A stretch of 64,000 nucleotides of DNA, taken from NCBI GenBank assembly GCA_000004985.1, contig GG738854.1. One strand, given 5' to 3'. The DNA is from Naegleria gruberi. Its lineage: Eukaryota. The position numbers and the translations under genes are program-made. Shown here piece after piece: positions 8,247-50,361 of the stretch. The notes below the pieces were generated by a model that did no database searches, was not told where the DNA came from, and saw only the letters and a list, made by a program, of their open reading frames with translations. How positions within the stretch are numbered: position 1 is the stretch's first letter; every line of letters starts with the position of its first letter.

Positions 8247-10231
8247 ATGTTTCGAAACAGCCATCAAGAGACGTCAAATTTTGCATCAGACGAAAGTGAA
8301 GAGAAAGTTGAAGATACAAACGATGAATCATTAGTGAAAAGATATGAAAATGAATTGGTACATATAACAGGAACAGAAAATGTTTACGGGTTTAGTTCTT
8401 CAACAAGTGCAGAAAGAGTTTCGAATAGTGAATTGATGGTTTTAGGAAAGGCTGTCACCGAAGGCATTCAACGTTTGAATATTCAAGAAGAAACAGAAGA
8501 TGGTCCTTCTTCCGTCATTAGTGACAATCGAATAGTTTCAGAGCCATCATTATCACTCGAAACATTAGTCGAAACTATGCAACAACTCGAAGATTCTCAG
8601 AGAACAAACTCGCAACCAAATCAAACTCAACCTCTCACTTCAAAATTCATTCCCAAAGTAGATCACATACCACATAATGATCCTCAAGATTTGAATTTAC
8701 TTTCGGATGCTTTCGGATACAGCAGTGCTTATTATTGTTTCGGTTCTAATGAAGAGAATTTCCTTTCACTGGACTATTCTGCACTTGCTACAAGTGGAGA
8801 TTCGTATAATGGTGAAGTGATTTCAAAAGTTATGAGAAAATCCTTTACAAATCAATCAGTTGTTTTAAACGAAAGTCAACAAGCAAGGAGTGGCTTGGGA
8901 TTGGTAGATACTAATCAAAATGTTGACACTTCTCCATTCAAGGTTAGATGTTTGGGTGGAAATGAAGTAGTGGAACATATTAGAATTGGTGCCTACAACT
9001 TGGGAGTTATTACACGAAACCTTTCTAATAACTTTTCTAATGGAAACTCTAAAACTAACTGCTATATTTCTGGATCTAACGAAAGAGGTCAATTCGGCAG
9101 ACCAAAATCATTTAAGGGATCGAATGGTCTCATTAAAATTGACCATTTCGACAAGAATAATCTAACTTTGAAAGATATTGCCTTTGGCTCTTATTTCACC
9201 TTATTTCTAACTGAATGTGGAAAGGTTTTCTCCTGTGGAGAGAATGAAAATGGTCAACTGGGAACCAATTCTATTTCCAACCAATACGAAATCAAACAAA
9301 TGCGTGTCATTCATCCAGAAACTAAACTAGAAGAATTTGTTACTGACATTGAAACTGGCGCCTTTCACACACTTGCCAAAACTTTGAGTGGAAACATTTA
9401 TTCATGTGGATATAACTGTTGGGGGCAGTGTGCCATCTCTGAAATTGATGGAGATGTCATGGTTCCAACACTAATTGATAAATTTGGAAAGGACAAGATT
9501 GAGATTGAAAGAGTTATTTGTATTGAACATAATACTTTCTTTATTACAAAAGCAAATCCATATTCTGAAATTTATGGTAAGTTTTTGTTGTGTTATCAAA
9601 TAATTATTAAAAGATTTGTTGGAAATTAGGTTGTGGATTCTCAAAGAAAGGTCAATTGGGAAAGGATTTTGGAGAGGCAGTTAGAAATCCAGTGAAACTG
9701 GATTTTTTCACAGGGAAGGATTTGAGTGTTAAGAGTGTGAATGGTGGTTGGGGTCATGTCTGTATTGTAACTAATGGAGGTCAAGTATTCTCACAAGGAT
9801 TGAATGATTATGGTCAATTGGGATTGGGTGATTTAGAATCAAGAAAATCGCCAACTTTGGTTCCATTCTTTGATCATCTTTACAAAAATTGTAAACTTGA
9901 TAAGATAGAACAAGTCAGATGTGGAAGTTATCATTCTCTATTCCTCACTCGTTCAGGAAAACTCTTTGGATGTGGATACAATGAGATGGGATCCATTGCC
10001 TTAGGAAATGAACATTCATGGATTTCCACACCAACCCTAATTGTCCAATTCCCAAATTGCCTAATTGGAGAACCATTCTATGAATTGGAGGTTAAAACGT
10101 GGTGCTACACAACTTGCATTCTTGTAAAGAAGAGATTTAAGAGAATTGAGAATATGTTTGGCAGGTTGAGGAATTTATTGGCAAATGAAGAATTTAATTT
10201 TGGAGATGTTAAGATTATTTCATTGAATTAG
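8247..10231 (+). CDS. RCC1-repeat (regulator of chromosome condensation-like) protein. Two exons: 8247..9576 and 9630..10231
   Basis: ATG at 8247. Ser/Glu-rich N-terminus, then at least 7 RCC1-like blades with a recurring G(Q/E)LG signature (CGENENGQLGTNS, YSCGYNCWGQCAIS, GCGFSKKGQLGKD, FSQGLNDYGQLGLGD, FGCGYNEMGSIALGN). A phase-1 intron is required to join ...PYSEIYG|CGFSKKGQLG. Confidence 0.65.
9577..9629 (+). other. Spliceosomal intron (53 nt, GTAAGT...TTAG, phase 1)
   Basis: The sequence gtaagtttttgttgtgttatcaaataattattaaaagatttgttggaaattag lies between two RCC1-blade-encoding ORFs. The frames match only after splicing. Confidence 0.65.
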
Positions 10232-12887: not shown

Positions 12888-13666
12888 TTAGTTCAATAAT
12901 AAAATAGACGAAAGTTTTTTGTTCGAAAGATTTTAACTTCACCACCACTGAAGATTTCTTACTCATTTACATATCAGAAGATACCAACACTCAGTTTTCG
13001 ATATTTTACAAGAGGAACTTTCATAGTTTTGATAACTGAAGCAATTGTGAATACCACCAATATTAGACAAGAACCCAGAAGAACACCACTAACATCTTCT
13101 ACAAACAACCACAAATTCCATGCCAATTTCTGTTCGGCCGAATCGTCTAGATTTGTACAGATGATAACAGAATGAAATAGAACTTACAGTATCATGACTT
13201 TCAGCGTAGTCCATTCTTAAATTTTCCTATTGCCATAATAATCCAATGATATTGGAAGGTAAGGATCACTTGGAATCAATAAGGATCTTGTTCTCAGTGC
13301 CATACTACTCAATTATTAAGAGTTCATTGTGAATTGGAAGCGCAATATTATCACACACAAGATTATGTCGGACATTTAAGGTATTATACTCTGTGTGAGA
13401 GGGAGAAATATTAAGCCACTGTACAGATCGGTCACCTACCCAACCACTATCAAACTCCACTTAATCAATGTCCAACGAATGGAGAATTAGTTTTGTGTGT
13501 GGTCATGAGAAGAGACATCAGTTTTAATGGAGGAAATGTTTGGCGGGAATGTTGTGGACTTGTTAATTTGTGCTTGCGAGATGATTCAACACCAATCGAT
13601 TTAAAGATGTGTGTTGAATTGTTTGTGGAATCATCAAAAAAAAACAAGCTTAACACACAACTCAAT

Positions 13667-15067
13667 ATGACTGAGGAGAATATCAAGAAATTCTCTTGGG
13701 AAGAAATTGAGAAACACAACCATGAGGAAAGTGCTTGGTTGGTTATTGATGGAAAGGTTTATGATGTAACCAAGTTTATTCCTCATCATCCTGGTGGTGA
13801 TTACTTGTTATTGGGAGCTGGCAGACATTCGACTGAATTGTTTCTCAGTAATCATCCAGCCAAAATCCTAAACAATTCGAAAGCTCTATTAGAAAAGTAT
13901 TACATTGGAGAGGTTGAACAAGAAACAATCGTCACTAAAGAAATGGTTCAAAAGCAACATGTCAAGTATTCTTACAATCCACCAGATCAAACCAATTTCT
14001 ATCTTGAATGTAGAGCTCAAGTTGACCAATATTTGAAAGACAACAATCTCACTGCTAGAGATGTTCCTCAAATGTATCTCAAGATGATTCTTTCCCTGTG
14101 TATTTGGTTTATTCTATACTTGGGAACTTTCTATTATTTCGAATCAAAATTGCTCAGTTTCGTCGTTGCCATTGTTTGGGGTTGGTCCAATGCAAATATT
14201 GGTGTTAACATGATGCATGATGCTAATCATAGCTCCTTTTCCAATCATCCAACTATCAACAGAGTTGTGGCAGTTGTTTGTTTTGACATTTTAGGTGGTT
14301 CTTCCTATGTTTGGAAAATGATTCACTCAGTTGGCCATCACGTAAACACAAATATTGAAGAACGTGATCCTGACATTCACACAGGAGAACCTCACTTTAG
14401 AAAAATCAAATCAGCTCAGAAACATCATTGGTGGTATGCCTATCAACATTATTACTTGCCAGTTCTATATTGTTCCTTATTATTTGAGTTGGCATTTCGT
14501 GATTTCTTTGCCATGATGATTGGATCATGGGGAGGTGTCAAATTTCAACCACCTCCAAAAGGAGAATATTTGCTCTTCTTTTCTACAAAGATTTGGTGGT
14601 TGACCTATTCATTGGCTTTCCCAATTTGGTTTTCTAATCATTCAGTTGGAACTATTTTCATGTTGTGGTGTACTGCTTATATGGTTGCTTCATTCTTGTT
14701 GGTTTTAATTTTCCAAGTCAACCATGTCACAAATATTGCTGATTCTTTCCATGTCAATCAACAAGATGGAATGGTTCATGCTGATTGGGCAGCAACTCAA
14801 GTAAGTGGATCGAGTAACTTTGCCTGTGGATCATGGTTATGGAATCACTTGTCAGGTGGCTTGTGTCATCAAGTAGAACATCATCTTTTCCCATCCATTA
14901 GTCATATCCATTATCCAAAGATTCAACCCATTGTTGAGAAGTGTGCTAAAAAGTATGGAATCAAGTATAATAGTTATGGAACTTTTTGGGAGGCCATTAT
15001 TGGTCATTTCACATTATTAAGGGATATGGGTCAGAAGGGAATTCAATCAAATTGGAAATCCATGTAA
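13667..15067 (+). CDS. Front-end fatty-acid (or sphingolipid) desaturase with an N-terminal cytochrome b5 domain
   Basis: First in-frame ATG at 13667 (MTEENIKKFSWEEI). Cyt b5 heme motif HPGGDYLL. Three His boxes: HDANHSS, HSVGHHVNTN and QVEHHLFP. A Q-x2-HH third box is diagnostic of front-end desaturases. Multiple TM segments. Confidence 0.8.
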   Translation: MTEENIKKFSWEEIEKHNHEESAWLVIDGKVYDVTKFIPHHPGGDYLLLGAGRHSTELFLSNHPAKILNNSKALLEKYYIGEVEQETIVTKEMVQKQHVKYSYNPPDQTNFYLECRAQVDQYLKDNNLTARDVPQMYLKMILSLCIWFILYLGTFYYFESKLLSFVVAIVWGWSNANIGVNMMHDANHSSFSNHPTINRVVAVVCFDILGGSSYVWKMIHSVGHHVNTNIEERDPDIHTGEPHFRKIKSAQKHHWWYAYQHYYLPVLYCSLLFELAFRDFFAMMIGSWGGVKFQPPPKGEYLLFFSTKIWWLTYSLAFPIWFSNHSVGTIFMLWCTAYMVASFLLVLIFQVNHVTNIADSFHVNQQDGMVHADWAATQVSGSSNFACGSWLWNHLSGGLCHQVEHHLFPSISHIHYPKIQPIVEKCAKKYGIKYNSYGTFWEAIIGHFTLLRDMGQKGIQSNWKSM

Positions 15068-15162: not shown

Positions 15163-15816
15163 TTAATATTCAATTTCTTCAAAATCAATTTCATCCTCTT
15201 GAACACATGCGCCCATTACAACCATAGGTGGTACCAAGATTGAGTATTGGGTTGTGAATGCAACACAATTTCCTTTTTGTGTATTCGAAAGGAAAGATTC
15301 CATCGAATCAACTTTGTAAACATTCTTATTGCAAACATTACAATATCTAATTGATGAGCTTTCAGGAGTACAAGTTAATTGATCATAATTGAGTGGACAT
15401 TTGTAAATCCATTCACAATTTTCAATCATTTTTTCATCATTTCCTGATGTTACAAAATTAGGAATGTCCAATTTAAACAAATCAGAGTTGACTGAATTGT
15501 TATTGCCATGTAACTTGACATGTTGTAATCTTCTTCTCAAGAGATGCATCCAATTCTTAATATTCAACTGCTTTTCAAATTTTGGATAATAAGCAAAAAC
15601 GAGCGGTTTCCAAATCAATTGCTGAACTCGTTCAAAATCCAAGGTTTCATCTTCACTTTCCTTTTTCTTCTCACCAATTTTCTCCCTTTTCACATTAAAA
15701 AACAACATTAATAATCGACTATTACACAACGACAAACCATTCAATTGTCTCACATCCATAAATTGTGCAATATTGATCATCAATTCCATCGGCAAATCAA
15801 CCTTCATCTTTTCCAT
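15163..15816 (-). CDS. Hypothetical protein with an N-terminal F-box-like motif
   Basis: ATG (minus) at 15816. DLPMELMINIAQFMDVRQLNGLSLCNSRLLMLF resembles an F-box. A 64-aa ORF (15804..15998) overlaps the start in another frame and may be a 5' leader or a sign of a local frameshift. Confidence 0.4.
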   Translation of the reverse strand: MEKMKVDLPMELMINIAQFMDVRQLNGLSLCNSRLLMLFFNVKREKIGEKKKESEDETLDFERVQQLIWKPLVFAYYPKFEKQLNIKNWMHLLRRRLQHVKLHGNNNSVNSDLFKLDIPNFVTSGNDEKMIENCEWIYKCPLNYDQLTCTPESSSIRYCNVCNKNVYKVDSMESFLSNTQKGNCVAFTTQYSILVPPMVVMGACVQEDEIDFEEIEY

Positions 15817-16105: not shown

Positions 16106-17428
16106 TTAGTTTTGATAAGGTTTCATTTCATAATCGGTGAAAGAAGGATACATGGATGATGATGGAGTGGAAATATTTTGAGAACTTTCCTGATAGTTGA
16201 ATGTTGGATTGATTTGATTTTCAATTATTGGAGGAAGAGTATATTTGTTGATTGCTTCAATGTACACTTGTGGATTGTTGGTTTTTTCGAGTAGAACTAA
16301 TGTTGAGGGAGGATTAGTTTCATGTTTCAATTCAATGCATAATTTAGAATGGGATGCTGTTAGGAAATGACTTTCGTTGTGATGTTCATCCTCAAAATCA
16401 TTCCAAGCTCTGGAAATTGACGAGAGTTCAATTGAGATTAATTCAACTTTCCAACCATTTGCCTTCATAATCATAATTTTCATATTTGTTAACAATACAT
16501 TAACACTAAATTTGTTAAAAGTATGTTTGTAAAATGCAATGAATATAACTAAACAGAGCCAAGCAGCACCAACGCTCAAAATGGAAGCAATTGTTAAAAA
16601 GGAAATTACTGTAAATAATATAAGTGGAATAATTGCAATGAGAATGTAAAATATTTTCATACGCCAAGAAATTCCACCCTCTTGATAAAATTCATGATAT
16701 TGCAATTCCTCATCTGAAATTAATTGGGATGCTGCAATATTTCTTTGATTAACATTACCAAATATGGATTTGGCATCTTTCAGTCCATTCCATTTTGAAA
16801 AAACTGATTCTCCTTGGACACTCTTCTCAAAATGTCCACAAAATAGAAAAACATCCTTTTCCCTTCCCTTATAACTCTTGAACATTACAATAAATATGGT
16901 CACACACTTGGCCACAGCAAGAGTCGCACCAATTGTAATACAGAAATAGATTAGCAAATTTCGTCCCCCAAAACTCTCAAATTCTGGATTGCTCATGAGT
17001 GAAATATCTTGATTTTTAACTTTTTCATGATTTCTCATCATTTGAAAAACATTTCCACGACAAGGAAACTGACCACCATAATATTTCTTACAAGTTTCTG
17101 CCTTGTTGGCCGAATCTGATCGACAAAATTCATTCCATTCCACTTGAGTTGGATAGCCCATCATGGAAACATTGGCATTATAAAAGTACACCAAGCCATC
17201 AGAGCTCGTTTTCATATTGGACAAGCTCTCCACTTGACATGTAAAACCTCTATAGTGCAACAATTGTGTCATGTCCAGAAATATACAGGACATGAAAAGA
17301 AACACTGCAGACACTAGCGGAATCACGAGTCTCGCAGCAATATTTCCACAATTGATATAGACCAGCTTTTTTGTGTGGTTAGATTCGGAAAGTGATGAAA
17401 AATTGGTGTGCTGCCGATTTATAGACAT
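16106..17428 (-). CDS. Polytopic membrane protein with a Cys-containing extracellular loop, function unknown
   Basis: ATG (minus) at 17428. Four clear hydrophobic helices: LVIPLVSAVFLFMSCIFL, LLIYFCITIGATLAVAKCVTIFIVMF, IFYILIAIIPLILFTVISFLTIASIL, GAAWLCLVIFIAFY. A Cys-rich loop lies between TM1 and TM2. Confidence 0.5.
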   Translation of the reverse strand: MSINRQHTNFSSLSESNHTKKLVYINCGNIAARLVIPLVSAVFLFMSCIFLDMTQLLHYRGFTCQVESLSNMKTSSDGLVYFYNANVSMMGYPTQVEWNEFCRSDSANKAETCKKYYGGQFPCRGNVFQMMRNHEKVKNQDISLMSNPEFESFGGRNLLIYFCITIGATLAVAKCVTIFIVMFKSYKGREKDVFLFCGHFEKSVQGESVFSKWNGLKDAKSIFGNVNQRNIAASQLISDEELQYHEFYQEGGISWRMKIFYILIAIIPLILFTVISFLTIASILSVGAAWLCLVIFIAFYKHTFNKFSVNVLLTNMKIMIMKANGWKVELISIELSSISRAWNDFEDEHHNESHFLTASHSKLCIELKHETNPPSTLVLLEKTNNPQVYIEAINKYTLPPIIENQINPTFNYQESSQNISTPSSSMYPSFTDYEMKPYQN

Positions 17429-17569: not shown

Positions 17570-18859
17570 TTAGTTGTGGATGGCGTTGGCCAAACCAATT
17601 CTCATATTTTGCTTATCATAAACAGTGTAGAAGAGAGATTGGAAGAGAGAACCAAAGATCCATTGACCAGCTTTGAGTTGATCGGCCTTATTGATACCAC
17701 CTTGACAGACAGAAGGTCCAAAGATTGGTGGCTTGTTTTCAATGACAAAGTTATGTGGTTCAATAGAATATTCATTGCCACCAATGACAAAAGTAAAGGT
17801 TGGAATTCTAGAGAATTGAATTTGAGAACAATCAGCTGGAAGACTGACATTGGCAAAAAGTTGCATAGCAGAGAAGGTGATTGGATCAGTAAACATGGCA
17901 TAAGCACTTGTATCAAAAGTAGCAAGACACTTGACTCCAGTACCAGGACCACATGTTAAATAATTGACCAAATTACCATTAACCTTAAGACCATCGAATT
18001 CAATCATCCAATTCTTTGAACCAGTTGGAATTGGATAGAAATTCATTGGACCCTTATAGTAATCAGTTGAGTAACCACCCAAAACCAAAGCTCCTTTACC
18101 CTTTTGCTTTTGTTGATTTGGATTCTTGAGTTCACTCAAATAAATAGAAAAGACATAGCTGCTAACTAGTTTTTGTTGCACAACATAATCCATAATGGAT
18201 GGGAATGAATAGACATAGTTTGCACTTGGTTCTGGACTCAAATTCAAACCAAGGAATCCATCAAATTGCAAAAAGCTTTCCTCAAAAGAATCATCACTCT
18301 TAACCAATTCAGCAAAAGTAACATTCTTAATTGTCAAATCAGCTCCATTATCCAAAATAAGTCCCATTTGATCATTGGCAAGTGTTCCAAAGAATTCAAA
18401 TTCTCCCAAATACCAATCAACTTGTCTTCCATCTTTCTTGTAAGTGCTTGACTTGGAAGAATCATACTTTGGATGTCTGAAACATTGCATTCCACACAAT
18501 GTAGAAGTAACAGTCAATAATCCTCCATTAGTATTAACCATAAGCTTGAAAGTATTACTCTTATCTGAACCAAAATGTACATTGGCATAATAATAGAACT
18601 GTTTTCATTGACAATTCATCAAAATCATAATAAATTCATCAAGTAACAATAAGTGTCATCATCATTAATATTAATATAAAAATTTAAATATTTAGCAACG
18701 TACATTGTTATAATCCTGAAGAGGAACAACCATCAATGATTCACCACTCACTCCCTTCATCTTCTCCTTTGAAAAGTTTCTCATTGGAATGGCTCCCGAC
18801 ACACAGACAGCCAAAGCCAACACGATGGCTACAGAAATTATGGCAGTAAATTGACGCAT
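17570..18859 (-). CDS. Pepsin-family (A1) aspartic peptidase homolog with non-canonical catalytic motifs, predicted inactive. Two exons on the minus strand: 18859..18704 and 18598..17570
   Basis: Exon 1 encodes the signal peptide MRQFTAIISVAIVLALAVCVSG. Exon 2 starts FYYYANVHFGSDKSNTFKLMVNTNGGLLTV, which aligns to the pepsin Y.G.I.IGTP.Q.F.V.FDTGSS.LWV with DTG replaced by NTN. Other A1 hallmarks are present: C..C.H..YDSSKSSTY, the flap Y in DWYLGEF, QFDGFLGL, a second motif ATFDTSAYAMF (pepsin has DTGTS) and the C-terminal WIFGSLFQSLFYTVYDKQNMRIGLA. Confidence 0.65.
18599..18703 (-). other. Spliceosomal intron (105 nt, minus strand; GTACGT...AACAG, phase 0)
   Basis: Minus-strand donor is AAT|GTACGT. 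Acceptor is GAAAACAG|TTC. The intron is very AT-rich and joins a signal-peptide exon to the pepsin-like body in frame. Confidence 0.6.
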
Positions 18860-19425
18860 TTTTTTTTGTGTTTGTTTTCTTCTCTCGGAGGGAATTTCGG
18901 CGACAACCTTAATAAGGTGAAAATAAAGTTTTGAGAATTTGAGCGAAAAAATTGTTCATTTTGATTGAAGATTTTTTAAAGGTTCGTTTTTGGGTATGCA
19001 ATATTCTGGAACTACTGACCTTTCGTTTATTTACAATGAATGTGAAAAGAAAGTGAACTAATTCTAATACATAAATATTATTGTAAAGAATAAATATTAT
19101 CATTTTACAATAAATATTTAAGAGAGTTTCACTTCCTTTCTGTGAGGTTCTTTTATGGAAAATTGGCGCGAAAAGGATCAAAAAAAATTCAAAAAAAAAT
19201 ACAAAAATGATTCTCTATCTCTTGCTCTTTCTCACGGTTGCTCTGATGGTAGCAGCCTCATTGTTGCTCCCCTTCGTAACGAGTATACAATATCCGAAGA
19301 GGAATCGTTTTCAATTAAAACAAGCACAACATTTTCCGATATGGTTGGTTGTATTGGTAGAGTTTAGGAGGAGAGTTGTGTTTTTATTGGATTTTATTGT
19401 TCATTATATTCATGTAAATTATACA

Positions 19426-20964
19426 ATGAAGCCACAAGAGTTGAGTCCGAAAGTTGGAGAGTATGGAAAATTGGATGTTGAAATTGTCAAACCAATTAAA
19501 GATGACACTCCACAACAACATTTTGGAATGTTATCACCTACAGATGCTCCTTTTCCACCTTCACATTATTGTTTTCAATTTGAAGGATTTTTGGATAGAA
19601 AATTGTTTGTAGAATCCCTTTCGGAAGTTTTAAAGCACATTCCTAGATTGGGTTCTAAATTGGTCGAGTTCAAATCTTTGGATGAATTGAAGAGAGGAAC
19701 TGCTGGATGGTTTGATGAGTTGGGTAATATGGAGAGAAGAATTGTTGAAGGCAGACTTTTGAATGCTAAAAAGCCAATAACACTTTTTGATTTGAGAGAT
19801 GCCCAATTGGAAGTTTGTTTTGCTGAAGATGACACTATTAAAACAAATGATGAAACTGGATTATTGACAGCCACTGATTTGGCAAAGAATATGCACATTC
19901 TTTCTGTGTTCGGTGTTAGAGGACCAATCAAGGTTATCCACTCCGAACCAACAGATCCACTCACAAGACTTCAAGTTACTTATTTACGTAAAGCAAACAA
20001 GACTGCTCTCACCATTTATATGGATCATGCTGTTGGAGATGCTTCTTCCATCTCAATGTTCATGCAATTGTTGGGTGATATTTTGAGTGCAAAGCAAACT
20101 GGAAAGGAATTCAAACCACGTAATCTTCCAGTTTGCAATCCTGTTCCTATCTTTAAATTTGGATACAATAAGGAAGCAGAAAAGTTAGATGATTTCCTAT
20201 TCACTTATTATGATCCTACTGCATGCTATTCCTTCTTCAGAGCTGAAGTATTCAAATATCTAGATCAAAACTCTAAAAATCCAGCAAAAATTATTGCCAA
20301 AGAAATTACTGTCAATAAGAAACAATTGGATCAATTGAAAAAGAAGATTTTGAACGAAACTCCTGAACTGAATGATGTTGCCTTCAGCACCAATGACATG
20401 TTAAATGTTTTACTTTTGAGATCTGTTGCTTTTGGAGACAAGATTAATAGAATTGGCAGCGAAAAGTTATTGACATTGAGATATGTTGCTTCATTTAGAG
20501 AACGTTGTGATTATATTACTAGTAATTATTTTGGAAATGCTTTTGGAATTATCTTTGATAGTGTATCCAAGAAGGAATTGTTGGAAATGACTACTGGTGA
20601 ATTAATCCTCTTAGCAAAGAAGAATACTGAAAAGACTGTTAACAATCAAGGTTATTGGGAAACTAAATTGGAAGAAATGAATCAAAGATATTTCGACCCT
20701 CTCCAAGTTGACTTTGGTTTCCCTGCCTTTGAAGGAAGTGAAAACTTTATGGGAGTCACAAATTGGGTCAAACCAATGTTAGAAATTGGTTCTCACTTCC
20801 AAGATAAATCCTATCTGGGTATCAGTACTCTTTGCATGCCATTCCCTCATGTAAATAAGATTCTACCAACCTCAACAACTGATCCAGATGGTGGTGTTAG
20901 ATTGGTGCTTTCCTTGTATGAGCCTGAATACTTGTATTTCGTTGGAGAAATTCCAAAAGTTTAA
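19426..20964 (+). CDS. HxxxD-motif acyltransferase (BAHD / transferase-family-like)
   Basis: First convincing ATG at 19426 (MKPQELSPKV). The ORF extends upstream to 19207 through a hydrophobic stretch. YMDHAVGDASS (HxxxD) sits about 40% into the protein. DFGFPAFEG (a DFGWG-like motif) sits near the C-terminus. Size is about 512 aa. Confidence 0.45.
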   Translation: MKPQELSPKVGEYGKLDVEIVKPIKDDTPQQHFGMLSPTDAPFPPSHYCFQFEGFLDRKLFVESLSEVLKHIPRLGSKLVEFKSLDELKRGTAGWFDELGNMERRIVEGRLLNAKKPITLFDLRDAQLEVCFAEDDTIKTNDETGLLTATDLAKNMHILSVFGVRGPIKVIHSEPTDPLTRLQVTYLRKANKTALTIYMDHAVGDASSISMFMQLLGDILSAKQTGKEFKPRNLPVCNPVPIFKFGYNKEAEKLDDFLFTYYDPTACYSFFRAEVFKYLDQNSKNPAKIIAKEITVNKKQLDQLKKKILNETPELNDVAFSTNDMLNVLLLRSVAFGDKINRIGSEKLLTLRYVASFRERCDYITSNYFGNAFGIIFDSVSKKELLEMTTGELILLAKKNTEKTVNNQGYWETKLEEMNQRYFDPLQVDFGFPAFEGSENFMGVTNWVKPMLEIGSHFQDKSYLGISTLCMPFPHVNKILPTSTTDPDGGVRLVLSLYEPEYLYFVGEIPKV

Positions 20965-28129: not shown

Positions 28130-31100
28130 ATGTCTGTTGCAGAAGCTTCTAATAATGGTGCAGCTGCAACTACATTTATTGAAAGGAGTATTAATTTTAA
28201 TGAATCATCAACCATACAACAATCATCATCACAACAACGAGAAAATCAACATGTGTCGGGAAGTTTTATAGGAAGCAATACGAGTAGTTCATCTAGCTCG
28301 ACCAATTTTTCAGCAACAATGATGAAAAGTATTAAGGAAGCTATTGTGTCCTATATAATTTCAATGCAATACAAGCCACTGAGGCAGGGCAAAAAGTTTA
28401 TGCTTCTCTCTGTTTTGTATCATTTGTATATAATGTGGATTTCCATCTTTTTACCAACACTAGGCGATTATAATTGGGGAGAATATGCAAATTGGATATT
28501 CAAGGCAGTAAATTATCCAGTAACCCTTTCACTAGATTTAATTCCCTATGGTGGCATTGAGGCTTTGGGAGCAATTGTGTTTGCAATCAGTGCCCTATCT
28601 GTTCTTGTTGTTATAATGGCAGTTGCGAGTGTTCATAGGACGAGTAAACACATTGAGAGGGTGAGATTAATAGTAATGGTGACTGGACTTGTTCTCTCTC
28701 TGTTGGGACCACTCTTTGCATTTATTCTGACGGGCTTTACAGATTGTGAATACAAGCAAAAGGTGTACTTTGAGAGTATAGATGATAAGGCATATGCTCT
28801 TTCTAGATATCCAGAAGCAGAGTGCTTTGGGGATAATATGTACCTTTACATTATTTCAATTATTGCAGTATTCGGAATTTGTCTATCCATATTATGCACC
28901 TTAATTTCCTTCTCATCAAGTTGGAAGAGTGACATGGTATTCAAAACAGTTGTCCATTATCCATTATCATACTTGGTTATTAGTAATATTCTTCAAATGT
29001 TCATCATGTATTTTATTCATGATGAGTTCATGTATGGAAGAGCAATCCTTCACTTGATTATTTCAGCAAGTTGGATTCCTATACTATTCTATGAACTGCC
29101 CTTCCAATACAGATATGAAAATTCAATTTATTCTGGAGTGGGTTTTGCAAGAATAGGAGCATCAATTGGTTCTCTGATATCTTCCCTTGCCAACTCAGCT
29201 GACAATTCAGGTTTTGGTTTGGGAATGTTTGGCTTAACGTTCGCTCTTATTATCATTTCATTCATTGGTGGAGTAATAGGAATGGAATTATACATTAGAT
29301 TATCTACTCACAAGATTAGAAGTTACATGTTGTCTATTGTTGAGAAAACTCTATCTGTTAGTGGATCATTGCCTTCGAAATTCAAAGAAAGAGCCAAATA
29401 CATTCTGGAAAAAGAGGCCACTTCAATTTACTCCCATTTCATTGAAACACAACAGGCAGGATATTTAAGAATATTTATTCGATTCAGCATTGATCAAAAC
29501 TCTAAAAACAGCTCAGAAGCCATCCTCACAAACACTGATTTATCTCTGTATTTCATTAAGGGTGCGTCAACTCAAAGATCATTCAACGATAGCAAAACTC
29601 TTCTCTATTCATCCATGTTAATTTATTTCAACTATGGAGATGGTAATTTAGGATCAATGTATGCAAAAGGGTTGTTGAAAATCTTGGCAAAGCAAAAATT
29701 GAATATACCAGAAGTAATTATGTTAACAGAGTTTTCTAAGGAAATTAAGGATGAGAATAGTGTAAATTCATCTGATCTCGAACAATTATTGAATAAGGTA
29801 GAGAGTAATATAGCTGAATTGAAGTCCCTCCATAAGGCCTTCTGGAAAGAATATTTGCAAGATGTAATTGAAGTGGGAACTTTGGAATCGATTAATAACA
29901 AGTGTTCACAACTGATGAGCCAATGCGAAACTATTTTCAATAATAGGCTTTCCAGATACAAACACAATAAGAATTTCCTCAGAGCGTATGCACAATTTTT
30001 AAACGAAATCAAATTTGACAAGGAAACTGCCTTTGAAATATTCCAAGACGCAGCCATTGTTGACGAAGATGAGCCATCTAAAAAACGTGTTCTTGCTAAG
30101 AGTAATTTATTCACAGAATATGGTAAACAGCATTCTGAAACCAATTTGGGGTTTTCTCTAGATGGCTTAAAGGCTAGCAACCAAAAGAGTATGGACATTG
30201 AAACAATTCATGAAGATCAAATGTTGGATGGAGTTGAGAATGATCCACTTGCAAAACGGGAGTTCATTTTCAAAAGTGCTCTCTCCCAACCACAACAAGG
30301 AGGATATCATATGGGATCTGTTATCCTGTTCTGCTTTATATCCTTCTCTTTTGTGCTCCTTGCCTTAGTTTTGAATGTTTATTATTCAGTGGAAGTTCTT
30401 TCAAATGTCAAGTTTGTTCAGCAAGTTTGTGAGCCAACTGTTTCTTCATATGCCATTTTGAAACAAATCAGAAATAATCAAATACTCCTTCAAGCTAAAA
30501 ATCAGGGTCTAGATGTTGATGAAACAGATATTATGGGTATTCTTAAGGACGAGACAAACGAAAATATTACTTCCATACAATCTGTTTGGAAGGAGAGACT
30601 TAATTTCTATGTTGAACATATTGAACATGTTAAAAAGATGTCACAAGGTAAAATTGTTGGAAAATTCACACCTGAAATGTATGAAGATTACAATAGTGAA
30701 ACAAATGAAATATTTGTTCCTGTGATTCAAACAAAGAATCAAAATTCATTCATTGAGGTCATTAAGAAGAATGTTTCACTCTCTGAAATATCATCACTCT
30801 TGATTGATATTGTTGAAAATTATCCATCAGGAGGATACAATGAAACATTGAAAGAATATGATTTCATGTTGGTATTCTTGAATAGGGAAACTTTCACAAA
30901 TGCCTTTGTGAAAACATGTTTCAGTTTCTTGGAAAGATGTGAACTTGACTCCAAAAATTTCAACAATTACTACCTATACTTTTATGTTTCTGTATTGTCA
31001 TTTTACATTCTTTACACAGCCATCTATATTCTCTATGTAAGAATTGAATTCTCATTTATCACTAGAACCATTAGATTAATGGAACGCAGTATTTCAAAGG

Positions 31101-33157
31101 ATATTGTAGGTAAAATCTATCAAGATTTGGCAAAGAAAGTAGAAGAAAATGCTTCTTTGGGATTTCTCAAATCAATAATCAGCCAACCAAAAGTGTTTTC
31201 TGTTTTTTGTATTGCTTGTTTGGCTTTTCTTACAATACTTGCATCTTCAATGATGTTCGTAGAGTTGAGAATTAATTCTGATCTAGGATATTCAACAATG
31301 TTGAGTGTGCATAAGACCGCCGAAAATCTTGTTTTGGTTCAGTCAATTGGATACAAACTAAATGAGATTTTCTTTTCCACTCTATCACCCTCTTTATATA
31401 ATGACCCTATCTTAATCAATGGAACCCTCTTAGATTATTACAGGGTGGAGGTGAGATACAATGTAACAGATTTGAGAAGAAGTTTTAACGAATTGATTTA
31501 TGGTAAGCTTGGAGGAAATTCAGCAATTTTAGGAATGATACCAAGAATTGATCAGATTATTACAGGAACTGATTGTTCTTCTGGCAATTGTACAAGTTTG
31601 GAAAACTCTTTGGACGAATTTACAATTGGATCTAGCAAGTTCAACGAAGATTTGCTTAAAGGAACTTTTACAGAGGAAGAGTTGGTTTTAAAGAATGCTG
31701 TTGTGGATGAATTGAGCCACCACCTAAGTGTAGACTTTCTTGAATTTTTGGCCTTGTTTACCATTGCAAGATCAATACCTTCTACTGCTATTGCACTAAT
31801 TTTCAGTATTCTTGGATTTCTCACAATAGTTATTTTCTATTGGTTACTGGTTCGAGTGTTTCAAATTCATTGGAATGATGTATTCCATTTAAGAAGCATG
31901 TTGAACTATGTAGATTATGACTACTTGGATTCTTATGACTCTTTAAGAAACTTTATTCTATACCATCAACTGCCTTCTAGAAACCTGTTCAAAAAGAAGA
32001 ATAAGATTGCCTCAGCAGAGGGTGACGAATCGAAGGTGAAGAATATTCTCAATGCAGCAGTTGACGGAGCTATTCTTTGTAATAGTACATGTGATATTGA
32101 AATATTCAATCCAGCAGCTCAAAGAATGTTTGGATGCAAACAATCAGATACTTTGGGAACTCCAATTTTCACTCTCTTTGATAAAGAATCGAGGACAGAG
32201 TTGGAGAGAGTCATTTCTGAATTGATTAAGAATGCCAAATCGACAACATCTTCTGAAAGTCTTGGTGAAACTGTTGAATTGGATTGTGTGAGAAAGAACT
32301 TGACAAAATTCCCTGCGAAAATCAATTTGTTCTCAACACTGTTTGATGGAAAACCAGTTGTGACATGTTTCATTAAGGATGCAACTTCTGAAAAGAAACA
32401 AAATGCATTGTTGGCTGAAGAAAAGAAAAAATCTGAAAATCTATTGAGATCTATTTTGCCAGAAAGTGTTGCCAATAGATTGAAATCTGGTGAAACATTC
32501 ATTGCTGAGAAATTTGCAGATATTACTTGTTTCTTTTCTGACATGGTTGGATTCACTCAAATGTCTTCAACTCTCAATCCAACTCAATTGGTTGGAATGT
32601 TAAATAATATTGTGAATGGATTTGATGCCTTAACAGACAAATATAGTTTGGAAAAGATCAAGACAATTGGAGATGCCTATTTCTGTGTTGGAGGAATTGG
32701 AAATACACAATCTGATCACCCAGAAAGAATACTTCGTTTCTCAATGGACATATTCTTAGTAGTACGTAACTATAACGAGGAGAATGGGAAAGAATTTGGA
32801 CATCAAATCAATATTCGAGTTGGAGTGAATACAGGAAGTGCAGTTGCAGGTGTGATTGGTACAAAGAAATTTGCCTATGATTTGTGGGGTGATACCATCA
32901 ACACTGCTTCTCGAATGGAATCAACATCAATTGCTGGAAGAATTCAAATTTCCAGATCAACTTATGAAAGAGTTTATGATATGGGTCTTGAATTTGAAGA
33001 AAGAAGTGTTGAAGCAAAAGGAAAGGGTTTGTGTCTCACTTATTTAGTCAAATCTCATCACCATGCACAGGCCATAGTTTCTGATAACGAAATCATTGAT
33101 TCTGACCTCGAGGTTTCCCTAACTACAAAACCAGAGGATGCAAAGGCAGAGATATAA
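28130..33157 (+). CDS. Multi-TM PAS-domain class III adenylyl cyclase (paralog A)
   Basis: ATG at 28130. Single 1,675-aa ORF. About 10-12 TM helices in the first 420 aa. Two further TM segments sit mid-protein. PAS-like segment ILNAAVDGAILCNSTCDIEIFNPAAQRMFGCKQSDTLGTPIFTLF. Cyclase domain LLRSILPESVANRLKSGE...FSDMVGFT...KIKTIGDAYF...YDLWGDTINTASRME has both metal-binding Asp, the transition-state N and R, and the K/D substrate pair that indicates ATP. Confidence 0.85.
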   Translation: MSVAEASNNGAAATTFIERSINFNESSTIQQSSSQQRENQHVSGSFIGSNTSSSSSSTNFSATMMKSIKEAIVSYIISMQYKPLRQGKKFMLLSVLYHLYIMWISIFLPTLGDYNWGEYANWIFKAVNYPVTLSLDLIPYGGIEALGAIVFAISALSVLVVIMAVASVHRTSKHIERVRLIVMVTGLVLSLLGPLFAFILTGFTDCEYKQKVYFESIDDKAYALSRYPEAECFGDNMYLYIISIIAVFGICLSILCTLISFSSSWKSDMVFKTVVHYPLSYLVISNILQMFIMYFIHDEFMYGRAILHLIISASWIPILFYELPFQYRYENSIYSGVGFARIGASIGSLISSLANSADNSGFGLGMFGLTFALIIISFIGGVIGMELYIRLSTHKIRSYMLSIVEKTLSVSGSLPSKFKERAKYILEKEATSIYSHFIETQQAGYLRIFIRFSIDQNSKNSSEAILTNTDLSLYFIKGASTQRSFNDSKTLLYSSMLIYFNYGDGNLGSMYAKGLLKILAKQKLNIPEVIMLTEFSKEIKDENSVNSSDLEQLLNKVESNIAELKSLHKAFWKEYLQDVIEVGTLESINNKCSQLMSQCETIFNNRLSRYKHNKNFLRAYAQFLNEIKFDKETAFEIFQDAAIVDEDEPSKKRVLAKSNLFTEYGKQHSETNLGFSLDGLKASNQKSMDIETIHEDQMLDGVENDPLAKREFIFKSALSQPQQGGYHMGSVILFCFISFSFVLLALVLNVYYSVEVLSNVKFVQQVCEPTVSSYAILKQIRNNQILLQAKNQGLDVDETDIMGILKDETNENITSIQSVWKERLNFYVEHIEHVKKMSQGKIVGKFTPEMYEDYNSETNEIFVPVIQTKNQNSFIEVIKKNVSLSEISSLLIDIVENYPSGGYNETLKEYDFMLVFLNRETFTNAFVKTCFSFLERCELDSKNFNNYYLYFYVSVLSFYILYTAIYILYVRIEFSFITRTIRLMERSISKDIVGKIYQDLAKKVEENASLGFLKSIISQPKVFSVFCIACLAFLTILASSMMFVELRINSDLGYSTMLSVHKTAENLVLVQSIGYKLNEIFFSTLSPSLYNDPILINGTLLDYYRVEVRYNVTDLRRSFNELIYGKLGGNSAILGMIPRIDQIITGTDCSSGNCTSLENSLDEFTIGSSKFNEDLLKGTFTEEELVLKNAVVDELSHHLSVDFLEFLALFTIARSIPSTAIALIFSILGFLTIVIFYWLLVRVFQIHWNDVFHLRSMLNYVDYDYLDSYDSLRNFILYHQLPSRNLFKKKNKIASAEGDESKVKNILNAAVDGAILCNSTCDIEIFNPAAQRMFGCKQSDTLGTPIFTLFDKESRTELERVISELIKNAKSTTSSESLGETVELDCVRKNLTKFPAKINLFSTLFDGKPVVTCFIKDATSEKKQNALLAEEKKKSENLLRSILPESVANRLKSGETFIAEKFADITCFFSDMVGFTQMSSTLNPTQLVGMLNNIVNGFDALTDKYSLEKIKTIGDAYFCVGGIGNTQSDHPERILRFSMDIFLVVRNYNEENGKEFGHQINIRVGVNTGSAVAGVIGTKKFAYDLWGDTINTASRMESTSIAGRIQISRSTYERVYDMGLEFEERSVEAKGKGLCLTYLVKSHHHAQAIVSDNEIIDSDLEVSLTTKPEDAKAEI

Positions 33158-33356
33158 TGAATCCATTTTGGTAATATAGAATCATTTTATTTGCCAATAT
33201 ATTTTCCTTTTTTGTCACTTAACGATTCTGACAACCAATGATGGCGATGTTAGTGAGTTACAGAAATGGCGGGTAAAACATGAAATCTCAATTCTTATTA
33301 AAAAAAACATCATTAACCCTTCTTGAATACAAAAAGATATTGGTTTGCTTTTTAAA

Positions 33357-36300
33357 ATGTCCGGGAGTGATGAGTTGGAGGCCTCTGCTATAGAAGACGA
33401 CCAAAGATCTAATTATTTCGAATCGAGGACTCATATGAAAGGAAATGGAGAAGGCTCAAGTATTGTTGGAAGTGCACTAAGTGTTCAATCGAATAATAGT
33501 ACAATAGCCTCGACAACTATGAGAACAGTGCAAACTGGAATATTGACTTTTATTTTGGCTCTACAGGATAAATCATACAAGAAATCAAAGAGGTTTATTT
33601 TTATTTCAATACTGTATCATTTGTATATCATTTGGACTTCAATCTTCTTACCAACACTAGGCGAATACAATTGGGGAGAGTATGGAAGTTGGATTTTCAA
33701 AGCACTTAATTATCCAATCACATTTTCATTAGATTTGGTGCCCTATGAAGAGAGTGCTGCAATTGCAGGTGTCATTATGGCTGTCATCTTGTTGGGTTTG
33801 TTTTTTGTGTCATTTTCTGCTTGGACTGTTTATAGAAATAGCAAGTTGGTTGAAAAGATGAAAGTGGTAATGGCTGTGTCGAGTTTGGTGTTTTCAGTGC
33901 TGAGCAAACCATTTGCTTTTGTTTTGGCTGGTTTTATTGATTGTGACTTTTCAAAGACAGTTTACTTTGAAGATATTGATGATAATACTAATGCACTTTC
34001 TCGATTCCAAACAGTTGCTTGTTTTGGAGGTAACACGTACTTGTATGCACTTTCGATTATTTCAATGCTTGCATTTTCTCTAGTGATACTTTCAACTCAT
34101 TTTGCCTATTCTCCTAGTTGGAGGAGTAAGGTTGTGTTTCATACAGTTGTTGGTTGGCCCATTACCTATTTGGTTATTTCAAACATGCTTGAGATTTATC
34201 TAATATTCTTTATTCCAAAATCTGAAATTTGGGCAAGAGCTACTTTACATTTGGTAGCAGCCCTGACATTTGTTCCAATGATTCTAATTACACTTCCCTT
34301 TCAGAGACGTATTGAAAATTCCTTCTATCTTGCTGTAGCTTTTGCAAAGGTTGGATCTTCAATTGGTTCACTCATTTCTTCCTTGGTCAATTCTAATAAT
34401 AAGTGGGATTTAGGTCTTGGAATGTCAGGTTTAACAATTGGTCTCATTATTTTAGGTTTCTGTGTTGGATTCATTGTGATGGAGTTGTATATACTAAGAA
34501 CAATGGCTTTCATTAGACACAAGATGATTAAGGCCATCGAGAGAGGAGTTTCCATTTCAGATACTGCTCAAACTCAACTTTCAGAGTCTGCAAAAATGGG
34601 CCTTGAAAGAGAAGCTACAAATATCTATTCCTCACTTCATGAATCACAAAGTTTGAACAAGCTCAAAATATTTATTAGGTTTAACATAATCCGAAGAAGC
34701 AAGCAAACAAAGGCAATACTAGACGATACGGATATGTGTCTCGCATTTATTAAGGGTGTTTCTCATCAGAAAACATTCAATGATCCTTCTCTAATATTGT
34801 TCTCCAGTTTACTTATCTATGTCAACCATCCAGATGAATCGAATAGCTCAATTTTTGCCAATAGTTTGTTGAAAAAAACTACGCGAGTCAAGTTATCATT
34901 CTTTGAGAAAGTTACCCTTGGTGAGGTTACCAAAGAATTGAACATCTCTAAAAATGGTAAAGTTGCAAGAAACACAACAGACTTGGAATCATTGCTAGTT
35001 AGAGTTGATTCAAATTTTTCGCAACTCAAATCTCTTCACAAATCCTTCTGGAAAGAATTTTTACAAGATGTTGTTGACACTACTAACTTGGAAGTTATCA
35101 ATAGTAAATGTGCTCAATTGATGGCTGACTCTGAAAATATTTTCCACAATAGAATTTCAAGATATAAGAATAACAAAACCTTCTTGAGATCATATGCTCG
35201 CTTTCTAGATGAAATCAAGTTTGACAAGGATCAAGCTGCTGAACTCTTCCAAGAAGCAGCAACTATGGAAGAGGAAGAGCTTGCCACAAAGAGAAGGAGG
35301 CAGAGAAAGTTTAGTCGTGTTGTGCCCTATGATGGACCTGTAGTAAGCGTTGAACCTCCTGCATTCTCTCTCGATGGGTTGAGAAAGGGAACAAATGAAC
35401 CAATTACAAACCTAATGGATGATGATTTTGATGATCATATGTTGGATGGTGTTGAGAATGAACCTGCAACTAAGAGAGAGTATGTTTTCAAAGCGGCTCT
35501 AGCACAAAAGACCAACGGAGAGTTGCACGTGGCCTCTGTAGTAATGTTCTGCCTTCTTTCATTTGCAATAATACTTGTTTCCCTTGTGTTGAATGTGTAT
35601 TATTCAGAGGAAGTTCTTTCAAATGTCAAGTTTGTCCAACAAGTTTGTGAACCAACTGTTTCTTCATATGCAATCTTGAAACAAATCAGAAATAATCAAA
35701 TACTAATCCAAGCAAAGAATCAGGGTATTGGTGTTCAGGAAGCTGAACTAATTGACGTCTTGGAAATAGAAACAGATAGCAACATTACTGTAACAAGTTT
35801 AAATGAGATTTGGAAGGAGAGACTTAATTTCTATGTTGAACATATTGAACATGTTAAAAAGATGTCACAAGGTAAAATTGTTGGAAAATTCACACCTGAA
35901 ATGTATGAAGATTACAATAGTGAAACAAATGAAGTATTTGTTCCTGTGATTCAAACAAAGAATCAAAATTCATTCATTGAGGTCATTAAGAAGAATGTTT
36001 CACTCTCTGAAATTTCATCACTCTTGATTGATATTGTTGAAAATTATCCATCAGGAGGATACAATGAAACATTGAAAGAATATGATTTCATGTTGGTATT
36101 CTTGAACAGGGAAACTTTCACAAATGCCTTTGTGAAAACATGTTTCAGTTTCTTGGAAAGATGTGAACTTGACTCTGTGCAATTTGATAACACTTTCCTC
36201 TATTTCTTTGTTGGTTCTGCCTGTTTTTATATTCTGTCCTCCCTAATTTACATTATTTACATCAGGATTCAATTCACTCTAGTTGCCAACACACTGGCAT

Positions 36301-50130: not shown

Positions 50131-50361
50131 CAAAAGAATAAACGTAAATCTAGCTGTTGTATTGAAGAAGATCTCTTCCTTGAAAAGGATTTTGATATTC
50201 GCATCTATTAAAATACTAATATGTCCTCGTGAATTACTATAATCGAAATTCAGAACAAAAGTTCACCACAGAGATATATTTTACACTTGCAACAGTAAGA
50301 AGAAGTCACCACCTCACACCAAGACAAATCAAAAAAACAAACCTTAAGCGAGTAACTCAAA

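What the first reader, a model, noticed from the sequence alone, without database searches (positions are those of the whole stretch)
17570..18859. Pepsin-family homolog lacking the first catalytic aspartate (DTG -> NTN); a secreted pseudo-protease or binding protein
All structural hallmarks of an A1 peptidase are present: signal peptide, the C-x-C-H-YDSSKSSTY loop, the flap Tyr, the hydrophobic FDGFLGL, and the WIFGSLF...YTVYDKQNMRIGLA C-terminus. Where pepsins have FDTGSS, this protein reads VNTNGG. The second motif reads DTSAY instead of DTGTS.
A D-to-N change at the first catalytic Asp abolishes activity in characterised A1 enzymes. Plant xylanase inhibitors and mammalian PAGs are precedents for pepsin folds repurposed as binding proteins.
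Basis: partly seen in the sequence, partly recalled or inferred. Interest (0 to 1): 0.5.

Follow-up and report, generated by a model that had tools for sequence, protein, structure and literature searches.

The report
Dead pepsin-like protein conserved in Naegleria
This Naegleria gruberi gene encodes a pepsin/cathepsin-D-shaped protein with a signal peptide that has lost nearly its whole catalytic machinery yet has been kept intact across Naegleria and Willaertia, so it is most likely a non-cutting "pseudo-protease", a known kind of protein not described before in this group of amoebae.

Summary

This is not a sequencing error. N. fowleri and N. lovaniensis carry the same NTN/DTS.

In register, the flap Tyr75 is Leu. 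Trp39, Ser35, Gly78, Tyr189, Thr218 and Asp303 are also replaced, and the prosegment is truncated.

An uncultured Naegleria-like ortholog keeps Asp32 (D-T-D) but has lost Asp215 (S-S-G). Willaertia keeps both Asp but has D-S-D. Gly34 and Tyr75 are lost in every ortholog.

The gene is nevertheless under strong purifying selection (mature-domain dN/dS 0.08 for N. fowleri vs N. lovaniensis), with conserved intron position, six Cys and synteny. The cleft, the best-conserved part of active A1 enzymes, is here less conserved than the scaffold.

Verdict: an old, lineage-specific, non-catalytic A1 homolog, probably entering the secretory or endolysosomal pathway and acting by binding. Its ligand is unknown. 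It is a new member of a known kind, of moderate interest.

The parts
18704..18859 (-). Exon 1 (codons 1-52): start codon, signal-peptide-like leader, short linker
   Evidence: ORF and splice reconstruction. The spliced product equals XP_002680393.1 at 100% identity and coverage.
18794..18859 (-). Putative signal peptide, residues 1-22 (MRQFTAIISVAIVLALAVCVSG | AIP)
   Evidence: Read from the sequence: a basic n-region, a 17-residue hydrophobic core, and V-S-G at positions -3 to -1. Every ortholog has a comparable hydrophobic N-terminus. AF2 gives a low-confidence helix at residues 4-17. No dedicated signal-peptide predictor was available.
18599..18703 (-). Intron, 105 nt, phase 0, GTACGT...ACAG
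   Evidence: An intron sits at the same codon position in N. fowleri (59 nt), N. lovaniensis (70 nt), the uncultured ERZ27315067 ortholog (40 nt) and Willaertia magna (49 nt).
17570..18598 (-). Exon 2 (codons 53-394 plus TAA stop): pepsin-fold domain
18527..18535 (-). Degenerate first catalytic motif N74-T75-N76 (pepsin D32-T33-G34), codons AAT ACT AAT
   Evidence: N. fowleri also reads AAT ACT AAT and N. lovaniensis reads N-T-N. It is D-T-D in the ERZ/JGI ortholog and D-S-D in Willaertia.
18392..18415 (-). Remodelled flap W114-Y-L-G-E-F-E-F121 (pepsin I73-T-Y75-G-T-G-S-M)
   Evidence: Tyr75 aligns with Leu116. Ile73->Trp and Gly78->Phe are invariant in the clade.
17906..17914 (-). Second motif D281-T282-S283 (pepsin D215-T216-G217), followed by A284 in place of Thr218
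   Evidence: It is S-S-G in the ERZ/JGI ortholog and D-T-G in Willaertia.
18317..18325 (-). N-glycosylation sequon N144-V-T inside the invariant block KNVTFAEL
   Evidence: The sequon is present in N. gruberi, N. fowleri, the ERZ ortholog and Willaertia, and KNVTFAEL is also present in N. lovaniensis.

Best explanation
NAEGRDRAFT_82503 is a non-catalytic descendant of a cathepsin D / proteinase A-like aspartic peptidase. It most likely enters the secretory or endolysosomal pathway, as suggested by its signal peptide, three conserved disulfide pairs and conserved N-glycosylation sequon.

Shown here:
- It has the bilobal pepsin fold.
- The catalytic apparatus has decayed across the board: Asp32->Asn, Gly34->Asn, Ser35->Gly, Trp39->Thr, Tyr75->Leu, Gly78->Phe, Tyr189->Asn, Gly217->Ser, Thr218->Ala, Asp303->Ser.
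- Neither catalytic Asp is conserved across the orthologs.
- The gene is under strong purifying selection.

Inferred order of events: catalytic competence was probably lost before Naegleria and Willaertia diverged, because Gly34, Tyr75, Trp39, Gly78, Tyr189 and Asp303 are gone in every ortholog. The two aspartates then drifted independently. Asp32 and Asp34 became Asn in the N. gruberi / N. fowleri / N. lovaniensis lineage. Asp215 became Ser in an uncultured Naegleria-like lineage.

Inferred mode of action: the protein works by binding rather than cutting. The conserved function probably depends on the scaffold and on clade-specific conserved insertions, rather than on a pepsin-like peptide-binding cleft. 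These insertions are the PEPSAN..FSFP loop, the basic Q-KGKG loop and the enlarged C-G-x-G-x-G-x-K-C disulfide loop. The ligand is unknown.
For: - Pepsin-numbered residue map for five orthologs: position 32 N/N/N/D/D; 34 N/N/N/D/D; 75 L/I/I/I/L; 39 T/T/T/T/Y; 215 D/D/D/S/D; 217 S/S/S/G/G; 218 A/A/A/D/I; 303 S/A/A/S/Q.
- The ERZ variant (VDTDSG / LSSGDF) is confirmed in an independent JGI sample, P0229.
- Orthology: same intron position in all five. The Transferase neighbour is shared by N. gruberi, N. fowleri and N. lovaniensis, and the RCC1 neighbour by N. fowleri, N. lovaniensis and ERZ.
- Selection (Nei-Gojobori): N. fowleri vs N. lovaniensis mature domain dS 0.80, dN 0.064, ratio 0.08. N. 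gruberi vs N. fowleri whole-CDS ratio 0.19, with dS saturated.
- All six Cys of the three pepsin disulfides are invariant.
- Reversal of constraint: at 27 cleft-lining positions, pairwise identity is 0.40 against 0.61 for the rest of the protein in the clade (resampling P=0.002). In ten canonical A1 proteins it is 0.70 against 0.47 (P=0.0002).
- The prosegment is truncated and no A1_Propeptide Pfam match was found.
- The clade-specific insertions contain residues invariant from Naegleria to Willaertia.
Against: - No biochemical assay, expression data or localisation data exist; no paper in the searched library mentions the gene or its orthologs.
- Every ortholog still keeps at least one carboxylate at the former catalytic centre: Asp215 in three Naegleria species, Asp32+Asp34 in ERZ, all three in Willaertia. 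From my own knowledge, the plasmodial histo-aspartic protease shows that an A1 fold with only Asp215 can still cut.
- Between the close pair N. fowleri / N. lovaniensis the cleft is well conserved (1 of 27 differences against 32 of 326 overall), so the cleft is not free of constraint.
- The list of cleft positions comes from my own knowledge of pepsin-inhibitor structures, not from coordinates.
- The signal peptide was judged by eye only.
Confidence: 0.62

Rival explanations
1. It is a cleft-based peptide binder, like the pregnancy-associated glycoproteins or a substrate-trapping D->N mutant. On this reading the protein is catalytically dead, but the former substrate cleft is still the functional site and holds a peptide or protein ligand without cleaving it.
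For: The fold and the two lobes are intact. Several hydrophobic cleft positions are kept: Phe/Tyr117, Ile300, and Phe/Leu/Ile120. [quoted passage not shown] From my own knowledge, D->N mutants of aspartic proteases keep substrate binding.
Against: At greater evolutionary depth the cleft is the least conserved part of the protein (0.40 vs 0.61, P=0.002). Several pocket residues have turned polar or acidic (Phe111->Glu, Tyr189->Asn/His, Leu298->Gln/Glu/Thr). The flap tip has gained bulky Trp73 and Phe78, which could fill the pockets.
Confidence: 0.2
2. It is an unorthodox but active hydrolase. A single remaining carboxylate (Asp281 in N. gruberi) plus neighbouring residues would still catalyse peptide-bond hydrolysis, as in the plasmodial histo-aspartic protease.
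For: Every ortholog keeps at least one Asp at the centre. Purifying selection is strong. HAP structures appear among the sequence matches, although weakly at E~1e-13.
Against: The retained Asp is not the same one in all orthologs: ERZ/P0229 has Ser at 215, and three Naegleria species have Asn at 32. Gly34, Tyr75, Trp39, Ser35/Thr218 and Asp303 are all lost. The zymogen prosegment, which active A1 enzymes need for latency, is truncated.
Confidence: 0.08
3. It is an artefact or a decaying pseudogene. The NTN motif would then be a sequencing or assembly error, or the gene would be on its way to being lost.
For: Nothing beyond the unusual motif itself. The window does contain an assembly gap, but it lies about 40 kb away at 59655-62957.
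Against: N. fowleri has the same AAT ACT AAT codons and N. lovaniensis the same N-T-N residues. Five species have intact ORFs with a conserved intron and conserved synteny. dN/dS is 0.08-0.2.
Confidence: 0.02

Closest known systems
Lysosomal/vacuolar A1 peptidases (cathepsin D, cathepsin E, yeast proteinase A/saccharopepsin)
   Different: Both D-T-G motifs are degenerate. The flap Tyr75, Trp39 and Asp303 are lost and the prosegment is truncated. There are clade-specific insertions. It is therefore an evolutionary descendant of these enzymes, not a working member.
Bla g 2 / Per a 2 / Lma-p54 (inactive insect aspartic-protease homologs)
   Different: Only 20% identical and less similar than the active enzymes, so the loss of activity is independent. 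From my own knowledge, Bla g 2 keeps both Asp (DST/DTG) and has extra disulfides and a zinc site. The Naegleria protein has three disulfides and has lost Asp32.
Ruminant pregnancy-associated glycoproteins (PAGs)
   Same: A1 homologs in which substitutions in or next to the DTG motifs (for example Gly34->Ala or Asp215->Gly, from my own knowledge) are thought to abolish catalysis while the protein is retained as a secreted glycoprotein.
   Different: PAGs are a recent vertebrate expansion from pepsin-like genes and are thought to keep a peptide-binding cleft. Here the cleft is the least conserved region at depth, and there is no specific relationship to PAGs in the hit lists.
Plant A1 non-peptidase homologs (TAXI-type xylanase inhibitors, EDGP/XEGIP, basic 7S globulin)
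   Same: A pepsin fold reused as a binding or inhibitor protein that does not use the catalytic cleft. This is the closest analogy for the mode of action I propose.
Plasmodium histo-aspartic protease (HAP)
   Same: An A1 fold with position 32 no longer Asp and an altered flap.
   Different: HAP has His32 and, from my own knowledge, stays active through Asp215. Here position 32 is Asn, and an ortholog lacks Asp215. The sequence match is weak (E~1e-13).

Membership tests
MEROPS family A1 / Pfam PF00026 (pepsin-like fold, homology) | Significant match to the family profile and a bilobal pepsin fold | tested here: met
A1 active peptidase | Two catalytic Asp in D-T/S-G motifs (Asp32, Asp215) | tested here: not met
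   The first motif is N74-T-N76 and the second is D281-T-S283. This is conserved in N. fowleri and N. lovaniensis.
A1 active peptidase | Flap Tyr75 with its partner Trp39, and supporting residues Ser35, Thr218 and Asp303 | tested here: not met
   Leu116, Thr81, Gly77, Ala284 and Ser369 sit at these positions. Tyr75 is absent in all five orthologs.
A1 active peptidase | N-terminal prosegment of about 40-50 residues that keeps the zymogen latent | tested here: not met
   Only about 22 residues lie between the predicted signal cleavage site and the first mature strand. No PF07966 match was found, whereas cathepsin D/E hits carry it.
A1 active peptidase | Conserved disulfides Cys45-Cys50, Cys206-Cys210, Cys249-Cys282 | tested here: met
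   All six Cys are present and invariant in the clade: C87/C91, C268/C276, C309/C350.
A1 active peptidase | Pepstatin-sensitive endopeptidase activity at acidic pH | not testable with these tools
   This needs recombinant or native protein.
TAXI / XEGIP-type plant inhibitors (PF14543 + PF14541) | Matches to the TAXi_N and TAXi_C profiles above threshold | tested here: not met
Pseudoenzyme (functional, non-catalytic homolog of an enzyme) | Catalytic residues lost while the gene is maintained by purifying selection in several species | tested here: met
   Five orthologs have intact ORFs and the same intron position. Mature-domain dN/dS is 0.08 (N. fowleri vs N. lovaniensis) and about 0.15 (N. 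gruberi vs N. fowleri). The state of the catalytic Asp varies between orthologs.

The most novel reading that the evidence does not exclude
The protein founds an ancient pseudo-pepsin family specific to Naegleria and Willaertia (vahlkampfiid amoebae). In this reading it arose independently of the animal and plant examples. Its function would have moved from the cleft to new conserved loops, for instance as a phagosomal or secreted recognition or inhibitor protein directed at prey or competitor molecules, converging on plant TAXI/XEGIP inhibitors. The paired Asp32/Asp34 -> Asn32/Asn34 switch would mark a change in what the old catalytic centre binds, for example a cation or a basic group.
Probability: 0.2. 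Interest if true: 0.55.

Novelty: new member of a known kind. Interest (0 to 1): 0.36.

Why it matters
Non-catalytic homologs of pepsin-like proteases are known from ruminants, cockroaches and plants, but their functions are mostly unclear. I found none described from heterolobosean amoebae in the searched literature.

This one is unusually informative because the orthologs have lost different catalytic aspartates while staying under strong constraint. That is close to a natural experiment showing that the conserved function does not need catalysis.

It is also conserved in the brain-eating amoeba N. fowleri. That ortholog should therefore not be counted among active proteases or aspartic-protease drug targets.

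The practical consequence is modest: the annotation should read 'peptidase A1 homolog, predicted inactive', and the protein is a candidate for ligand-discovery work.

Tried and rejected
- Sequencing error at the NTN codons: rejected. N. fowleri has the same codons and N. lovaniensis the same residues.
- Pseudogene: rejected by dN/dS, the conserved intron and synteny.
- More clade members: a profile search of 5.8 billion proteins with the four-ortholog alignment, an exhaustive HMMER search of 1.84 billion representatives and a metagenome-contig scan found nothing beyond N. gruberi, N. fowleri, N. lovaniensis, one uncultured lineage (ERZ27315067 / JGI P0229) and Willaertia magna. The next-best hits are canonical A1 enzymes at about 30% identity.
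- Tandem paralogs: tblastn with pepsin and with the protein itself found only the gene in the window and in loci L001-L003.
- A canonical active A1 paralog in Naegleria: I could not retrieve one.
  - A paper lists a second N. fowleri 'Peptidase A1 domain-containing protein' (A0A6A5CFU9) in extracellular vesicles (PMC9312180). It is not the ortholog A0A6A5B8P5.
  - Picking ten candidates by amino-acid composition and looking them up returned no protein named as Naegleria; six of the ten carry no name at all.
  - The afdb50 fold library was unavailable.
- Literature: no paper in the searched library mentions NAEGRDRAFT_82503, D2V6X9, FDP41_007154, A0A6A5B8P5 or C9374_008071. General Naegleria aspartic-protease searches gave only passing remarks.
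- Ongoing diversifying selection on the cleft: not supported. N. fowleri and N. lovaniensis differ at 1 of 27 cleft positions against 32 of 326 overall.
- RNA genes in the intron or nearby: no Rfam or tRNA hits anywhere in the window.
- Cleft occlusion in 3-D: could not be checked because model coordinates are not exposed.

Full report
**What is in the sequence.**
- The window is Naegleria gruberi DNA (32% G+C).
- A two-exon gene lies on the minus strand. Exon 1 is 18859-18704, a 105-nt phase-0 intron (GTACGT...ACAG) is 18703-18599, and exon 2 is 18598-17570.
- The spliced 394-aa product is identical over its full length to the N. gruberi 'predicted protein' XP_002680393.1 / NAEGRDRAFT_82503 / UniProt D2V6X9. 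My gene model is therefore the reference model.
- The product matches Pfam PF00026 (eukaryotic aspartyl protease) across the whole profile at E=5.6e-40. It matches solved cathepsin D, cathepsin E, renin, pepsin and proteinase A structures at E=1e-33 to 1e-20.
- An AlphaFold2 model built on a 39-sequence alignment is confident (pLDDT 86.7, pTM 0.85).
- The pepsin-family assignment is secure.

Confirmed:
- VNTNGG stands where pepsins have FDTGSS. N74 is position 32 and N76 is position 34.
- FDTSAY stands where pepsins have VDTGTS. D281 is position 215, S283 is 217 and A284 is 218.
- The Cys45-Cys50 loop, FDGFLGL and the C-terminal WIFGSLF...YTVYDKQNMRIGLA block are present.

Not confirmed:
- The flap Tyr is missing. 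In both the HMMER alignments to cathepsin D and the MAFFT alignment, Tyr75 aligns with Leu116.
- Further replacements are Ser35->Gly, Trp39->Thr, Ile73->Trp, Thr77->Glu, Gly78->Phe, Phe111->Glu, Tyr189->Asn and Asp303->Ser.
- The prosegment is cut down. About 22 residues separate the predicted signal cleavage site (VSG|AIP) from the first strand of the mature fold (AF2 strand 43-50). No A1_Propeptide Pfam match was found, although the cathepsin D/E hits have one.

This is not an intact active site with one lesion. The whole catalytic apparatus has decayed.

**Not an error, not a pseudogene.**
- The orthologs found are:
  - N. fowleri FDP41_007154 / A0A6A5B8P5, 64% identical;
  - N. lovaniensis C9374_008071;
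  - an uncultured lineage seen in two independent samples (ENA ERZ27315067 contig k141_315457 and JGI protein P0229), 62-66% identical depending on the alignment;
  - Willaertia magna ABK040_003125, 42-45% identical.
- N. fowleri has the same AAT ACT AAT codons and N. lovaniensis the same N-T-N residues.
- I rebuilt all five coding sequences. Each has one phase-0 intron at exactly the same codon position, with lengths of 105, 59, 70, 40 and 49 nt.
- Synteny supports orthology.
  - A PF02458 transferase is the divergent upstream neighbour in N. gruberi (19207-20964), N. fowleri and N. lovaniensis.
  - An RCC1-repeat gene is the convergent downstream neighbour in N. fowleri, N. lovaniensis and the ERZ contig.
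- Nei-Gojobori estimates show purifying selection.
  - N. fowleri vs N. lovaniensis: dS 0.80 and dN 0.064 for the mature domain, a ratio of 0.08.
  - N. gruberi vs N. fowleri or ERZ: whole-CDS ratios of about 0.19-0.21, with saturated dS.
- The six Cys of the three pepsin disulfides are invariant, as is the NVT sequon inside the invariant block KNVTFAEL.

**The comparative pattern at the active site.** Residues are given in the order N. gruberi / N. fowleri / N. lovaniensis / ERZ / Willaertia.

| Pepsin position | Residues |
|---|---|
| 32 | N N N D D |
| 34 | N N N D D |
| 35 | G G G S V |
| 39 | T T T T Y |
| 75 | L I I I L |
| 78 | F F F F F |
| 189 | N H H H H |
| 215 | D D D S D |
| 217 | S S S G G |
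| 218 | A A A D I |
| 303 | S A A S Q |

- No ortholog has an intact first D-T-G. Only Willaertia has D-T-G at the second site.
- Different lineages have lost different catalytic aspartates, yet the proteins stay 62-66% identical across Naegleria. The conserved function therefore cannot require the catalytic dyad.
- Gly34, Tyr75, Trp39, Gly78, Tyr189 and Asp303 are gone in all five. From my own knowledge, the Gly of D-T-G is sterically required in the psi-loop, and a Gly34->Ala change is the accepted reason for regarding bovine PAG-1 as inactive. Activity was therefore probably lost before Naegleria and Willaertia split.
- A four-point comparison of p-distances weakly groups N. gruberi with N. 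fowleri / N. lovaniensis, to the exclusion of ERZ and Willaertia (0.799 against 0.821 and 0.825). On that grouping Asn32, Asn34, Ser217 and Ala218 are shared derived states.

**Where the constraint now lies.**
- I took 27 positions that line the substrate cleft of pepsin. The list comes from my own knowledge of pepsin-inhibitor complexes.
- In ten canonical A1 proteins these positions are far more conserved than the rest (pairwise identity 0.70 against 0.47; 0.0002 of random 27-position samples reach that value).
- In the Naegleria/Willaertia clade the relation is reversed (0.40 against 0.61; P=0.002).
- The clade also has invariant residues in segments that canonical enzymes lack:
  - a PEPSAN..FSFP insertion;
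  - a basic N-x-N-Q-Q-x-Q-K-G-K-G insertion;
  - an enlarged C-G-x-G-x-G-x-K-C loop in place of the short Cys206-Cys210 loop;
  - a K-P-P-I-F-G insertion.
- This points to a function carried by the scaffold and the new loops rather than by a pepsin-type peptide-binding groove.
- Two caveats apply.
  - Between the close pair N. fowleri / N. lovaniensis the cleft differs at only 1 of 27 positions, against 32 of 326 overall. The cleft is therefore not unconstrained, and there is no sign of ongoing diversification.
  - Every ortholog keeps at least one carboxylate at the old catalytic centre. I cannot explain this, and it keeps a small probability alive for an unorthodox hydrolase or a cation/base-binding role.

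**Most likely mechanism.**
- The protein enters the ER through an N-terminal signal peptide. This is inferred from the sequence only.
- It folds as a disulfide-bonded, probably N-glycosylated pepsin-like bilobal protein, and needs no zymogen activation.
- It ends up either outside the cell or in the endolysosomal/phagosomal system, as its cathepsin D / proteinase A-like ancestors do.
- There it acts by binding, not cutting. The partner is unknown.
- The main alternative mode is PAG-like binding of a peptide in the old cleft.

**Comparison with known systems.**
- The TAXi_N Pfam match is below threshold.
- This is therefore an independent origin of a pseudo-protease within family A1. It is not a member of the PAG, Bla g 2 or TAXI subfamilies.
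- Inactive aspartic-protease homologs are an established category, and the functions of Bla g 2, Per a 2 and Lma-p54 remain unknown or are only presumed to involve binding (PMC9541408).
- In the searched library I found no paper naming this gene or its orthologs.
- N. fowleri has at least one other A1-domain protein (A0A6A5CFU9), detected in extracellular vesicles (PMC9312180). I could not obtain its sequence, so its catalytic status is unknown.

**Verdict.**
- The core observation is right. The interpretation as a pseudo-protease is supported and extended. The claim of an otherwise complete active site is wrong.
- The finding is a new, uncharacterised member of a known kind, the A1 non-peptidase homologs. 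It is restricted to Naegleria and Willaertia and is of moderate interest.
- Its most notable feature is the mosaic loss of the two catalytic aspartates among orthologs under strong purifying selection.

Noticed in passing
window 59655-62957: An assembly gap of 3303 N, plus a single N at 62959. It produces four spurious ORFs of more than 1100 aa on both strands in the mechanical ORF list.
   Followed up: yes
window 28130-33157 and 33345-38399 (+): A tandem pair of genes of about 1680 aa with the same architecture: TPR_TmcB repeats, a PAS domain and an adenylate/guanylate cyclase catalytic domain. Probably a recent tandem duplication of a sensor cyclase.
   Followed up: partly
window 19207-20964 (+): A BAHD-like acyltransferase (PF02458, E=8e-10) transcribed divergently from the A1 gene. 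The same neighbour sits next to the ortholog in N. fowleri (L002 1059-2618) and N. lovaniensis (L004 1001-2755). In N. fowleri, two reverse-transcriptase ORFs and an ORF with no Pfam match lie between the two genes.
   Followed up: partly
window 16106-17428 (-) and 15163-15816 (-): A 440-aa ORF with hydrophobic stretches and a 217-aa ORF, both without any Pfam match, lie directly downstream of the A1 gene. In N. fowleri and N. lovaniensis an RCC1-repeat gene follows instead. The N. gruberi RCC1 gene is about 8 kb away at 8247-9629.
   Followed up: no
window 13493-15067 (+): A cytochrome-b5-fused fatty-acid desaturase (front-end desaturase architecture).
   Followed up: no
window 50362-54474 (+) and 48976-50133 (-): A 1370-aa ORF and a 385-aa ORF with no Pfam match at E<=1e-5.
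   Followed up: no
orthologs, pepsin positions 32 and 34 (window 18527-18535): Positions 32 and 34 change together: Asp/Asp in the ERZ lineage and Willaertia, Asn/Asn in N. gruberi, N. fowleri and N. lovaniensis. Every ortholog keeps at least one Asp among positions 32, 34 and 215. This may mean the old catalytic centre still binds something. It is unexplained.
   Followed up: partly
N. fowleri (literature): A second N. fowleri 'Peptidase A1 domain-containing protein', A0A6A5CFU9, was identified in an immunoreactive band of extracellular vesicles (PMC9312180). It is not the ortholog of this gene. Its active-site status was not checked.
   Followed up: partly
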